Part shown: one piece after another, positions 28,226-31,200 of the stretch
Numbering within the stretch: the first letter of the stretch is position 1
How the letters are laid out: each line of letters starts with the position of its first letter
Assembly (NCBI GenBank): GCA_963803015.1
Contig: CAWDKV010000011.1
Location: forward strand, 675,021-739,020
DNA: 64,000 nt
Direction: 5' to 3'
DNA from: an uncultured Gammaproteobacteria bacterium
GTDB taxonomy: Bacteria > Pseudomonadota > Gammaproteobacteria > Berkiellales > Berkiellaceae
The notes under the pieces: generated by a model
Told to the model about the DNA's origin: nothing
Database searches by the model: none
The model's input: the letters and a program-made list of their open reading frames with translations, nothing else
Made by a program: the position numbers and the translations under genes

Positions 28226-31200
28226 ATGCCAAAAGACGAAGAAAATAAAGCACCAGAAGTTGATCAATGGGGTGATCCGATCATACCAGCAAGTAAGACG
28301 GGAACACCCGACAGTAAAGATAGTGAAAAACTTACTCCAGAACAAATGCGGAATGCCCTGAAAGGAGGCTTCCAGCAAGCATTAGGGAATAAAGGTGTAG
28401 CTGAAATTAAAAAAACGGATGCTGCAAAGGAAATCATGCAAGATCAAAAAGGACTTTCAGTACAAGAACGAATAAAACTAGCAGAAGAAGAAAAAAAGAG
28501 AAAAGCTGAAGAAGCTAAAGCTGCTGAAGCAGCTGCAGCAAATGCGGAAACAGCTGCACAAGTCACCACCTCATCATTCTCCGCGTCAAGTGCTCCGCCA
28601 CCACCACCTCCTCCCGGAAAAGCGCCACCTCCACCTCCTCCTCCCGGAAAAGGAAAAGGAGCATTTCCAAAGGCCCCAGCCGCAGCTTCTGCTCCTGTAG
28701 TTGAGGCAACTGCTAAACCAGCCTCTCCTATCGCTTCTGCCTCTGATGCTGCTGCAGGTGGACCAGAACAACTAACAGACAAAGCAAAACTAGCTGCGTC
28801 TATCGCTGCAGGATTGCAAAAGAAAAATATAAGAGCTGCTGTAGCTGATGATGAAAATGAAAATGATCAAGACGAAAAAAATGATCAAGACGAAATTTGG
28901 GAGGACGATGCTCCTGCTATCGCAAAAGGGAAAGCTGCAGCCGCTCCGCCTTCCCCTCCTGTTGCAGCTGCATCAGCAGAACCAACCGCCGCACCAGCAG
29001 CACAACCAGCTGCAGCACTAGCAGAACCAGATACACCACCAGCAGCATCTTCTTTTTATACTCTAAGCGAAGATGAGCTGCCCCCTGCGGATACCTATCA
29101 ACCCATTGCAGAACCCACAAACATTTTATCTCGTCAACAAATAGAGAAATTAGACGAATTCATTTCTACAGAAGAATCCTCGCGGAATGGATCTTTTACA
29201 AATGAAATTATTACCCAATTCACAGAAGTAATCGATGAAGAAATTAAACGAGGAAAATTCAATTCATCTCAAAGAGAGAAATTAGAGAATCTTCGCACAC
29301 TTGTGAAGCATGCAGAAAATTTGAACGAAAGCTCAAAAAAAGTTGAATCTGCATTAAAAGAATATGCAACTTCACCGGGCAACGTAAAAAATCAAACTGA
29401 ATTAAGTCAAGCATTAGAAGCTCACTATCAAAACTTAGAAACATATACAACAGTGTATAATAAATGCCTATATCCAATAGGTGGCTTGCAAACAGATAGT
29501 AATTTTTCGGCATTGTTTGACAAGCTAAATTCTATTTCAACCTCCCTTCCAGCACCGATAAATTTTACTACGGGACAAGCCGGCAAACCATTAAATTTCG
29601 AAACTCGCGCTATGGCCCCGATACAAAGAGGTCCTAGATACTCATTACTGTTAAATGAACTCATTACGCTCTCTCCTGAAAATCTTGTTCAAAAGCAATT
29701 CTTAACTGACTTAGTTACAGCAAACCAACAGTCAAATATCAGAATGAATTCATCCACTTTAATCAACCCAGCGGCAGAAGTGGAAAAGAAAGCAAAAGCA
29801 GAAAAGAAAGCAAAGGTCAAAGTAGAAAAGACAGCTAAAACAGCAACATCCACCTCGTTTTTTGGCAACATTGTTGAAACCGTTGGAACAACGTTGGGGA
29901 TTTTGCCAGCAAAGTCAGGTATAGCAAAAACAGAGGCAACAGCAACTTCTTTACCTGTAACAGAGAGTACGGCAAGAGCAGCTTCCGCACCACCAGCATT
30001 AGTAACACCTCCAGTTCCACCGCCACCAGCTGAAGCAATGCCAAGTATAGATCTTACGGAAAATGAACCGTTAACTGATGAAAGTGAGCCGGAACCTGCA
30101 GTGGGTTCTGACACAGAATCTGACATAGAAGATGAAGGGTCTGATATAGAAGAAGAAGCAGAACAGGCAACTCCTTCAGCTACAGATGAAGTTAAAGCAC
30201 CTCGGCCTCCACTACGATCATCATACACAGCGCCGCTTCCGCCGCTGTCAGCACAATCACCAGGCGCAAAAAGCTCAGCTGCGGCATCTTCAGGAGCACC
30301 ACCTGCAGCAGCCACGACGGCTGGTACTGCCGCAGCAAAATCAGATCCGCCTCCTCCTCCGCCACGATCAAAGTTACTAGCGACAGCAACAACAGCTGCA
30401 ACAACAGCTGCAACAACAGCTGCAACAACAGCTGCAACAACAGCTGCAACAACAGCTGCAGCAACACCTGCAGCAACAACACCTGCTGCAACAACACCTG
30501 CTGCAACAACACCTGCTGCAACAACACCTGCAGCAACAACATCTGCAGCAGCAACACCAATAGCCAAAACGCCGCCTGGTGACAAGTCATCAACACCTGT
30601 CGATACATCACGAGAAGAAGCTGAAAACATCTTAAAAGAACATATTGAAAATTGGCCTCAAGTAAAAGGTAGTGGTGGTGAAGAGCTAGGTGAGCAATTC
30701 GTTGCTCTTGTTGCACTTGCGCTAAAAGCACTCTCTTTAGGGGGAACTGTCGCTGATATTAAATTTGGGAAACTGTTCAATGATAAATCAGATGAATTAA
30801 AAAATCTGAATAAAGAGAAAATAAAGCTTCAAGGAGACATAAGAACATTAGAGAATCAGCTTGGGCAAGCAACACCAGGCAGCCCAGAGGCTCAAAGATT
30901 AACAACAGAATTAACGACGAAAAGAGGGGAGCTTTCTCAAGTTGAGGCAAGAATTGCTAGTAGCGCAAATGGAACATTTGAAGCTGGAAGACAAGATTTG
31001 CATGCCCAAGTCACTTCAGCTGGGCAAGATGCTGCAGAAATGGAATCAGCAATCTTTACTGCTGCGCCACCGCCTCCTCCTCCACGAGCTCCCGCAGCAA
31101 CTGACCCAACAATAGCGGGGACTAAAGTGGCAGCGGCTCCTCCACCTCCAGCAGCGGCTATACCTGCAGCTACCCAATTGAAAGCACCGCCGCCTCCTCC

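What the first reader, a model, noticed from the sequence alone, without database searches (positions are those of the whole stretch)
29129..29730. Dbl-homology (RhoGEF) signature motifs in a bacterial protein
Seen in the sequence: within about 200 aa the protein reads SRQQIEKLDEFISTEES, then LETYTTVYNKCL, then GKPLNFETRAMAPIQRGPRYSLLLNELITLSPEN (core at 29618..29683). Established knowledge: eukaryotic DH domains (Pfam RhoGEF, PF00621) have conserved region 1 of the form (R/K)..(I/V)..EL..TE..Y. They have a central Y..Y/F..N/C block. Conserved region 3 has the form L.KP.QR..RY.LLL.EL.K.TP(E/D). The CR3-like stretch here matches P.QR.PRY.LLL.EL....PE almost residue for residue, and the motif order and spacing fit one DH domain. 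Inference: this is a horizontally acquired or convergent DH-type GEF domain. No PH domain is evident after it.
Basis: partly seen in the sequence, partly recalled or inferred. Interest (0 to 1): 0.85.

Follow-up and report, generated by a model that had tools for sequence, protein, structure and literature searches.

The report
Eukaryote-type RhoGEF domain in bacterial effector
A large proline-rich protein of a Berkiella-like amoeba-infecting bacterium really does carry a divergent copy of the eukaryotic Dbl-homology domain that switches on Rho GTPases, most likely to rewire host actin; such domains have already been listed, but never tested, in related bacteria.

Summary
The three quoted peptides are at the stated coordinates, inside one ORF (28226..32197, +, 1323 aa).

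Evidence that residues 313-521 (29129..29755) are a true DH/RhoGEF domain:
- Pfam PF00621 scores above its curated cut-off (27.9 bits for the whole protein, 33.4 for the domain alone).
- A two-sequence bacterial profile puts DH GEFs at the top of the PDB hits.
- hhalign against ten amoebozoan DH domains gives 94.8% probability over 159 columns.
- An AlphaFold model (pLDDT 85.8) matches only DH domains in the top 50 Foldseek hits.
- The residues aligned with those whose double mutation makes P-Rex1 GEF-dead (CR1 Glu, alpha6 Asn), and the QR..RY.LLL core, are present.
- There is no PH domain.

The domain is very divergent: 1.84 billion representative proteins hold one relative (P0001, 33% identity). 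The gene and a paralogous WH2-motif gene form a 6-kb insertion between psrp and prpD, which are adjacent in the closest relatives.

Most likely it is a secreted effector that activates host Rho GTPases and engages actin. This is inferred, not shown.

Novelty is modest. DH/RhoGEF domains are already tabulated for Legionella (2014) and Berkiella (2022) putative effectors, none characterised.

The parts
28060..28087 (+). Perfect 13-bp direct repeat (TATCTTAAATACT x 2.2) in the 169-bp gap between psrp and the DH gene. Possibly a binding site for a response regulator.
   Evidence: unique in the window, 0 expected by chance. The regulatory role is inferred only.
28226..32197 (+). ORF of the DH-domain protein: 1323 aa from the ATG at 28226 (AAGAGGA lies 8 nt upstream), or 1334 aa from the GTG at 28193. 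No signal peptide is evident.
28595..28645 (+). Two Pro7 runs (PPPPPPPGKAPPPPPPPGKGKG, aa 135-151), resembling a formin FH1 region.
   Evidence: sequence. Binding of profilin, SH3 or EVH1 domains is inferred.
29129..29755 (+). Dbl-homology (DH, RhoGEF) domain, aa 313-521.
29156..29179 (+). CR1 core EFISTEES. E327 (29171..29173) aligns with the invariant Glu of the 'TE' motif in DH domains. A 9-residue insertion follows, shared with P0001.
   Evidence: E12 and E17 are invariant columns of alignment A4.
29618..29683 (+). CR3 core PIQRGPRYSLLLNELITLSPEN.
   Evidence: amoebozoan DH domains read PIQRLPRYSLLL.
29747..29749 (+). N519 in helix alpha6. It aligns with the Asn of the P-Rex1 'INE' motif, which I take to be N238, one of the two residues whose joint mutation makes P-Rex1 GEF-dead.
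   Evidence: Alignments; PMC4601503.
29777..29839 (+). Lys-rich stretch EVEKKAKAEKKAKVKVEKTAK directly after the DH domain, where most Dbl proteins have a PH domain.
   Evidence: A membrane-binding role is speculative.
30386..30558 (+). Tandem 12-nt and 15-nt repeats encoding (TTAA)n and (TTPAA)n linkers.
   Evidence: An independent assembly breaks inside this repeat.
30605..30967 (+). Helical, coiled-coil-like region (aa ~805-925).
   Evidence: Only weak coiled-coil-type Pfam hits.
31067..31201 (+). Second cluster of polyproline runs (P6, P4, P5; aa 959-1003).
31706..32140 (+). C-terminal domain of about 140 aa, shared with the downstream protein. It belongs to no known family.
   Evidence: BLASTP E = 2e-15 at 30% identity; alignment A5; nothing in Pfam, PDB or metagenomes.
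32212..34122 (+). Paralogous downstream gene (636 aa), starting 14 nt after the DH gene's stop codon and carrying its own AAGGAG. It has a Pro-rich stretch, a WH2 actin-monomer-binding motif (aa 98-118, 32503..32565), acidic repeats, two PPPPPPPRR runs and the shared C-terminal domain (33643..34080).
   Evidence: the WH2 motif scores 28.7 bits against a cut-off of 23.1.

Best explanation
The ORF encodes a modular, eukaryote-mimicking protein of a Berkiella-like Legionellales bacterium that lives inside amoebae. It is most likely delivered into the host cell. Its DH domain would bind a host Rho-family GTPase (Rac, Cdc42 or Rho type). The CR1 Glu would engage switch 1 and the CR3/alpha6 surface, including the Asn, would engage switch 2. 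This expels GDP so that GTP loads and the GTPase switches on. The flanking polyproline runs would recruit profilin-actin or SH3/EVH1 proteins. The co-transcribed paralogue would supply a WH2 actin-monomer-binding motif. Together the two-gene cassette would drive local actin remodelling during uptake or vacuole positioning. Shown here: the DH identity, conservation of the key residues, the lineage-specific insertion, and the WH2 motif and paralogy. Inferred: secretion, catalytic activity, target GTPase and the actin outcome.
For: DH identity:
- PF00621 scores above its gathering threshold for this protein (27.9 and 33.4 bits) and independently for its only relative, P0001 (31.7 bits, covering profile positions 3-169 of 180).
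- The two-sequence profile A1 hits P-Rex1, Vav, intersectin, Trio, BCR, NET1, Tiam1 and the Entamoeba FP10 DH domain in the PDB.
- hhalign of A1 against ten amoebozoan DH domains gives 94.8% probability, E = 5e-8.
- The AlphaFold model has pLDDT 85.8 and pTM 0.81. The top 50 Foldseek PDB hits are all DH domains, at probability 1.00 and TM 0.5-0.63.

Catalytic residues:
- The CR1 Glu, Q/R/R/Y of CR3 and the alpha6 Asn are conserved.
- E56A plus N238A is what makes P-Rex1 GEF-dead (PMC4601503).

Host-directed role:
- The nearest relatives of the flanking genes are Candidatus Berkiella MAGs. Berkiella has dot/icm genes and many effectors with eukaryotic-like domains (PMC9803151).
- The gene pair is a 6-kb insertion between psrp and prpD, which are adjacent in L001 and L002. 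L003 holds a different unknown ORF in the same slot.
- The gene's GC3 of 0.235 is below that of all six neighbouring genes measured, 0.277-0.392.
- The neighbouring paralogue has a WH2 motif above the Pfam cut-off.
- The window also holds ankyrin and LRR ORFs.
Against: - Nothing here shows secretion. There are no dot/icm genes in the window, and the C-terminal 30 residues (Ala/Pro/Thr-rich, one Glu) do not show a clear E-block signal.
- The Lys of the common LLLKEL motif is Asn here and Glu in P0001.
- A 9-residue insertion sits right after the catalytic Glu.
- No PH domain or other recognised membrane-targeting module follows the DH domain.
- The AlphaFold MSA contained canonical DH domains, so the fold match is not fully independent. 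The single-sequence model was poor (pLDDT 49) and its Foldseek hits were meaningless.
- The WH2-like stretch I saw by eye in the DH protein itself (KLAASIAAGLQKKNIR) is not recognised by the Pfam WH2 model.
Confidence: 0.6

Rival explanations
1. The domain has a genuine DH fold but is not a working exchange factor. It would bind or sequester a host Rho GTPase, or act as a scaffold (a pseudo-GEF), while the polyproline and coiled-coil parts do the real work.
For: The domain is extremely divergent: one relative among 1.84 billion representatives, and Pfam scores only just above threshold. LLLKEL is replaced by LLLNEL here and MLLEAL in P0001. A 9-aa insertion lies beside the CR1 Glu. There is no PH domain.
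Against: The residues that align with those whose double mutation abolishes exchange in P-Rex1 (Glu and Asn) are kept in both bacterial homologues despite only 33% overall identity. So is the QR..RY core. This argues for selection on the catalytic surface. Isolated DH domains without a PH domain can be active; this last point is established knowledge and was not tested here.
Confidence: 0.22
2. The DH domain acts on a non-canonical partner. This could be a small GTPase outside the Rho family, or a Ras-superfamily GTPase encoded by the bacterium itself and co-delivered into the host.
For: [quoted passage not shown] The divergence of the domain leaves its specificity open.
Against: As far as I know, all characterised DH domains act on Rho-family GTPases. 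No GTPase gene lies next to this one in the window.
Confidence: 0.08
3. The signal is an artefact: a chance or convergent helical motif, or a piece of amoebal host DNA mis-assembled into a bacterial contig.
For: The Pfam score of the whole protein is only 0.3 bits above the cut-off. The single-sequence AlphaFold model was uninformative.
Against: Similarity runs over 159 aligned columns, and a second bacterial homologue passes Pfam independently. The ORF is uninterrupted. It has Shine-Dalgarno sequences, lies 169 bp after psrp, and is followed by prpD on a continuous bacterial contig. An independent assembly is 100% identical across the junction from the 3' part of the DH gene (30502 onward) through the WH2 gene into prpD.
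Confidence: 0.03

Closest known systems
Eukaryotic Dbl-family DH domains (Pfam PF00621). The closest solved examples are the Entamoeba histolytica FP10 DH domain (PDB 8zlf) and the P-Rex1 DH domain (5fi0, 4yon).
   Same: Same domain family by HMM, profile-profile comparison and predicted fold. The CR1 Glu, the CR3 QR..RY.LLL core and the alpha6 Asn are conserved.
   Different: About 16-22% identity. There is a 9-aa insertion after CR1. There is no PH domain (FP10 has DH-PH-FYVE, P-Rex1 has DH-PH). It is encoded by a bacterium and embedded in a polyproline-rich, low-complexity protein.
Catalogued but uncharacterised 'DH/RhoGEF' eukaryotic-like proteins of Legionellales: lmi0545, lha2362 and lfa2256 in Legionella (Gomez-Valero 2014, PMC4256840), and the 'RhoGEF/Coiled coil' and 'RasGEF/RhoGEF' putative effectors of Candidatus Berkiella (S4 table of PMC9803151).
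   Same: Same kind of thing: a DH domain found by a domain scan in a putative effector of an amoeba-associated member of the Legionellales.
   Different: No sequence relationship to these could be shown. phmmer finds only P0001. The gene lengths and neighbours in the Berkiella table do not match this window. In the paper searches I ran, I found no functional study of any of them.
Bacterial Rho GEF mimics with unrelated folds: SopE/SopE2/BopE, and the WxxxE family (Map, IpgB1/2, EspM, EspT).
   Same: The proposed outcome is the same: an injected protein that directly activates host Rho GTPases (established knowledge).
   Different: Those are convergent folds delivered by type III secretion. This one is homologous to the eukaryotic enzyme itself. 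No Pfam match to those families was found.
RalF, the Sec7-domain Arf GEF of Legionella and Rickettsia.
   Same: It is a precedent for a eukaryote-derived GEF domain carried by a Dot/Icm effector (established knowledge).
   Different: A different GEF family (Sec7 rather than DH) and a different GTPase class (Arf rather than Rho).
Bacterial Pro-rich and WH2 actin-assembly mimics: Chlamydia TarP, Vibrio VopL/VopF, Burkholderia BimA, Rickettsia Sca2.
   Same: The downstream paralogue has a Pro-rich stretch followed by a WH2 motif. The DH protein has FH1-like Pro runs.
   Different: No homology to these proteins was detected. As far as I know, none of them carries its own DH domain; TarP recruits host GEFs instead (from memory).

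Membership tests
Dbl-homology (DH) RhoGEF domain, Pfam PF00621 | Match to the family HMM at or above the curated gathering score (27.6 bits) | tested here: met
   27.9 bits, E = 3.2e-6 for the whole protein. 33.4 bits, E = 6.7e-8 for the domain alone. The homologue P0001 scores 31.7 bits over profile positions 3-169 of 180.
Dbl-homology (DH) RhoGEF domain, Pfam PF00621 | CR1 with the invariant Glu (E..x.TE..Y) | tested here: met
   EFISTEES aligns with EIyaTEesY. E322 and E327 are invariant columns. The trailing Tyr is displaced by a 9-aa insertion.
Dbl-homology (DH) RhoGEF domain, Pfam PF00621 | CR3 motif P.QR..RY.LLL.EL and the alpha6 Asn | tested here: met
   PIQRGPRYSLLLNEL compares with PIQRLPRYSLLL in amoebozoan DH domains. 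N519 aligns with the Asn of the P-Rex1 'INE' motif. The Lys of LLLKEL is Asn here.
Dbl-homology (DH) RhoGEF domain, Pfam PF00621 | Elongated all-helical bundle fold | tested here: met
   AlphaFold model with pLDDT 85.8. All top 50 Foldseek PDB hits are DH domains, TM 0.5-0.63. Caveat: the MSA contained DH domains, and the single-sequence model was uninformative.
Dbl-homology (DH) RhoGEF domain, Pfam PF00621 | PH domain immediately C-terminal (typical of the family, not universal) | tested here: not met
   No PH hit at E up to 10. A Lys-rich stretch and then low-complexity sequence follow.
Dbl-homology (DH) RhoGEF domain, Pfam PF00621 | Catalyses GDP/GTP exchange on Rho-family GTPases | not testable with these tools
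   Needs an in vitro mant-GDP exchange assay.
Dot/Icm (type IVB) translocated effector of Legionellales | The host organism has a Dot/Icm system | tested here: inconclusive
   The nearest relatives are Berkiella MAGs, and Berkiella genomes carry dot/icm (PMC9803151). The window itself has no dot/icm genes, and the exact source genome was not identified.
Dot/Icm (type IVB) translocated effector of Legionellales | C-terminal translocation signal, and demonstrated translocation | not testable with these tools
   The C-terminus (…ALAASPAPATTPPTPTSKQG) is rich in small residues but has no clear Glu-rich block. A reporter translocation assay is needed.
Dot/Icm (type IVB) translocated effector of Legionellales | Eukaryotic-like domain in a lineage-specific gene | tested here: met
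   The protein has a DH domain. The gene is absent from the syntenic loci of four relatives.
WH2-motif actin-binding proteins (Pfam PF02205) | Match to the WH2 HMM above its cut-off (23.1 bits) | tested here: not met
   This row refers to the DH protein, where no candidate stretch gives a hit. The downstream paralogue does meet it: 23.2-28.7 bits.
SopE or WxxxE bacterial RhoGEF mimics | Homology to those families | tested here: not met
   No such Pfam family appears among the hits at E up to 10.

The most novel reading that the evidence does not exclude
This would be the first catalytically active, eukaryote-derived DH-type Rho GEF shown in a bacterium. It represents a deeply divergent, PH-less bacterial DH lineage that so far has two members. 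In one polypeptide it is fused to FH1-like polyproline tracts, and it is paired with a WH2 paralogue. One small operon would then both switch on a host Rho GTPase and feed actin assembly.
Probability: 0.4. Interest if true: 0.65.

Novelty: new member of a known kind. Interest (0 to 1): 0.45.

Why it matters
All bacterial Rho activators studied so far (SopE, the WxxxE family) are convergent inventions. A working DH domain in a bacterium would show that pathogens can also use the host's own enzyme family. It would also provide a minimal, PH-less and highly divergent DH domain, useful for asking which residues are truly needed for exchange and for specificity. The two-gene cassette could help explain how Berkiella-like bacteria use host actin on their way to the amoebal nucleus. 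The value is tempered because DH/RhoGEF domains are already listed in Legionella and Berkiella effector catalogues. What is new here is a well-supported, very divergent member with an unusual architecture, not a new principle.

Tried and rejected
- Word-indexed homologue search with the DH region found nothing. With the two-sequence profile it found only P0001.
- Scans of GTDB genome contigs and JGI metagenome contigs for relatives of the DH region and of the shared C-terminal domain found none.
- The single-sequence AlphaFold model (pLDDT 49) and its Foldseek search were meaningless.
- P0002, the second phmmer hit, is an ankyrin-repeat protein. It matches only a short repeated QQFIDQQIQ-like stretch and has no DH domain, so I rejected it.
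- I tried to equate the gene with entries in the Berkiella S4 effector table by length and neighbours. Peg.256, 'RhoGEF/Coiled coil', is 3,753 bp, against 3,762 bp for this ORF measured from its internal ATG at 28436. The neighbours do not fit, and a 1,688 match elsewhere looks coincidental.
- A WH2-like stretch seen by eye in the DH protein is not supported by the Pfam model.
- Exact-sequence look-up of the 1323-aa product found nothing on record, probably because the gene was called with a different start.
- Literature searches for a characterised bacterial DH-type GEF found none.
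Full report
**The observation**

The window carries a long ORF on the + strand. It runs from the GTG at 28193, or more plausibly from the ATG at 28226 preceded by AAGAGGA, to 32197 (1334 or 1323 aa). SRQQIEKLDEFISTEES is aa 313-329 and starts at 29129. LETYTTVYNKCL is aa 415-426. GKPLNFETRAMAPIQRGPRYSLLLNELITLSPEN is aa 464-497, with the core exactly at 29618..29683. 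The pattern P.QR..RY.LLL occurs once in the six-frame translation and never in 200 shuffles.

**Is it a DH domain?**

Five lines of evidence agree.
- Pfam. PF00621 (RhoGEF) is the only significant family for the protein: 27.9 bits against a gathering score of 27.6, E = 3.2e-6. The domain alone scores 33.4 bits, E = 6.7e-8.
- An independent homologue. An exhaustive phmmer search of 1.84 billion representative proteins found one true relative, P0001. It is 291 aa, 33% identical, E = 1.2e-14. P0001 passes PF00621 on its own over almost the full model, positions 3-169 of 180, at 31.7 bits. The second hit, P0002, is an ankyrin protein that matches only a short repeat, and I rejected it.
- PDB sequence hits. 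A profile of the two bacterial sequences (A1) puts DH GEFs at the top of the PDB hits. These are Entamoeba FP10 (8zlf), P-Rex1, Vav1, intersectin, Trio, ARHGEF25, BCR, NET1 and Tiam1.
- Profile-profile comparison. hhalign of A1 against ten amoebozoan DH domains (A3) gives 94.8% probability, E = 5e-8, over 159 columns running from CR1 to CR3. A3 was built from hits, all of which carry PF00621.
- Predicted fold. AlphaFold2 with a 12-sequence alignment (A4) gives pLDDT 85.8 and pTM 0.81, an all-helical bundle. The top 50 Foldseek hits in the PDB are all DH domains, at probability 1.00 and query TM 0.5-0.63.

One caveat applies to the fold. The MSA contained canonical DH domains, so the fold evidence is not fully independent. 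The single-sequence model was poor (pLDDT 49) and its search meaningless. Even so, it placed the helices in the same positions.

**Catalytic residues**

In alignment A4 the invariant columns are the two CR1 glutamates (E322, E327) and P476, Q478, R479, R482 and Y483 of CR3. N519 in the last long helix aligns with the Asn of the P-Rex1 'INE' motif. P-Rex1 needs both E56A and N238A to become GEF-dead (PMC4601503). The residues I take to be their equivalents are kept here and in P0001, although the two are only 33% identical.

Four things differ from the canonical pattern:
- The Lys of LLLKEL is Asn here and Glu in P0001.
- A 9-residue insertion follows CR1 in both bacterial sequences.
- CR2 is only loosely matched.
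- No PH domain follows. Instead there is a Lys-rich stretch and then low-complexity sequence.

**The rest of the protein**

The protein is modular. Before the DH domain there are two Pro7 runs (aa 135-151). After it come acidic and Thr/Ala/Pro repeats, encoded by 12-nt and 15-nt tandem repeats at 30386..30558. A helical, coiled-coil-like region follows (aa ~805-925; weak hits only), then a second cluster of polyproline runs (aa 959-1003). The last part is a C-terminal domain of about 140 aa with no Pfam, PDB or metagenome relatives.

That C-terminal domain is shared with the next gene, 32212..34122, which starts 14 nt downstream and has its own AAGGAG (BLASTP E = 2e-15). The paralogue has a Pro-rich stretch followed by a WH2 motif above the Pfam cut-off (23.2-28.7 bits against 23.1). 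A WH2-like stretch that I noticed in the DH protein itself is not supported by the model.

**Genomic and taxonomic context**

The neighbours are bacterial housekeeping genes: ppsA, psrp, prpDCB, clpB, ftsK, icd, serS and others. Effector-like ankyrin and LRR ORFs lie between them. The closest relatives of psrp are Candidatus Berkiella and related MAGs, at 64-75% identity.

In those relatives the block ank-ppsA-psrp-prpD-prpC-prpB-permease is conserved. psrp and prpD are adjacent in L001 and L002. L004 has a 0.7-kb gap there, and L003 holds a different 787-aa unknown ORF. None of the four has a homologue of the DH or WH2 protein. The DH+WH2 cassette (28057..34124) is therefore a lineage-specific insertion in a variable slot.

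Its GC3 of 0.235 is below that of all six neighbouring genes measured, 0.277-0.392. An independent Logan assembly (ERR11630394) is 100% identical over 30502..35630, which rules out a chimeric contig at the 3' junction. P0001 lies on a 5.5-kb contig of 37% GC. Its neighbours are APH-like, MFS and membrane-protein genes in a compact, bacterial-looking arrangement.

**Mechanism**

Berkiella species are obligate intracellular bacteria of amoebae with dot/icm genes and hundreds of putative effectors (PMC9803151). The most likely reading is a translocated effector whose DH domain activates a host Rho-family GTPase. The polyproline tracts and the WH2 paralogue would couple this to actin assembly.

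Shown here: domain identity, conserved key residues, the insertion, the paralogy and the WH2 motif. Inferred: secretion, catalysis, the target GTPase and the cellular outcome.

The rivals, with my estimates:
- A pseudo-GEF or scaffold, 0.22.
- A non-Rho or bacterial GTPase as target, 0.08.
- An artefact or contamination, 0.03, effectively excluded.

**Comparison with what is known, and novelty**

DH domains are a eukaryotic family. The experimentally studied bacterial Rho activators (SopE, the WxxxE family) have unrelated folds. [quoted passage not shown] They are also tabulated among putative effectors of both Berkiella genomes, as 'RhoGEF/Coiled coil' and 'RasGEF/RhoGEF' (S4 table).

I could not equate this gene with a specific table entry. 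I found no paper that characterises any bacterial DH protein. The finding is therefore correct and well supported, but it is a new and very divergent member of an already catalogued kind. The points that go beyond the catalogues are:
- The divergence: one relative in 1.84 billion proteins, and no eukaryotic hit by phmmer.
- The absence of a PH domain.
- The CR1 insertion shared by the two bacterial members.
- The fusion to polyproline tracts, and the pairing with a WH2 paralogue.

Noticed in passing
window 24774..27172 (-): The ppsA gene (PEP synthase) is split over three reading frames, with two frameshifts near 25445-25505 and 25832-25872. It is intact in the relatives. This is either a pseudogene or an assembly error, although its regulator psrp next door is intact.
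   Followed up: partly
window 28060..28087: A perfect 13-bp direct repeat, TATCTTAAATACT x 2.2, lies just upstream of the DH gene. It is unique in the window, with 0 expected by chance. From memory, it resembles the tandem TTAATAT-type PmrA sites in front of Legionella and Coxiella effector genes.
   Followed up: partly
window 32212..34122 (+): The downstream paralogue (636 aa) has a WH2 motif at aa 98-118 that passes the Pfam cut-off. It also has Pro-rich runs, including two PPPPPPPRR runs, acidic LPDAE-type repeats (33121..33197) and the shared C-terminal domain. It is likely an actin-binding effector in its own right.
   Followed up: partly
window 31706..32140 and 33643..34080: The two adjacent proteins share a C-terminal domain of about 140 aa (core TLxNICKxAVE…GTxF…LNL). 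It has no Pfam, PDB or metagenome relatives. It may be a targeting or secretion module.
   Followed up: partly
window 28057..34124; L001-L004 around 10800-13500: The psrp-prpD junction is a variable slot. It is empty in L001 and L002, has 0.7 kb in L004, holds an unrelated 787-aa unknown ORF in L003, and holds the 6-kb DH+WH2 cassette here.
   Followed up: yes
window 30386..30558: Tandem repeats of 12 and 15 nt encode (TTAA)n and (TTPAA)n. An independent assembly (L082) ends inside them, so the copy number may be variable or hard to assemble.
   Followed up: partly
window 22503..24599 (+); L001-L003: The 698-aa ankyrin-repeat protein upstream of ppsA has three or four tandem paralogues in the related MAGs at the same position. 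This looks like an expanding effector family.
   Followed up: partly
window 9755..11623, 11604..13292, 20887..22347, 57669..58649, 58763..59716, 59905..61266: Several large ORFs have no Pfam family, and one has only an LRR_6 repeat. They are scattered among housekeeping genes and are candidate additional effectors.
   Followed up: no
L081 190..1065: P0001 is the only detectable relative of the DH domain. It is a small DH-only protein (291 aa) on a 5.5-kb contig of 37% GC from run SRR30849500, next to APH-like, MFS and membrane-protein genes. The organism is unknown.
   Followed up: partly
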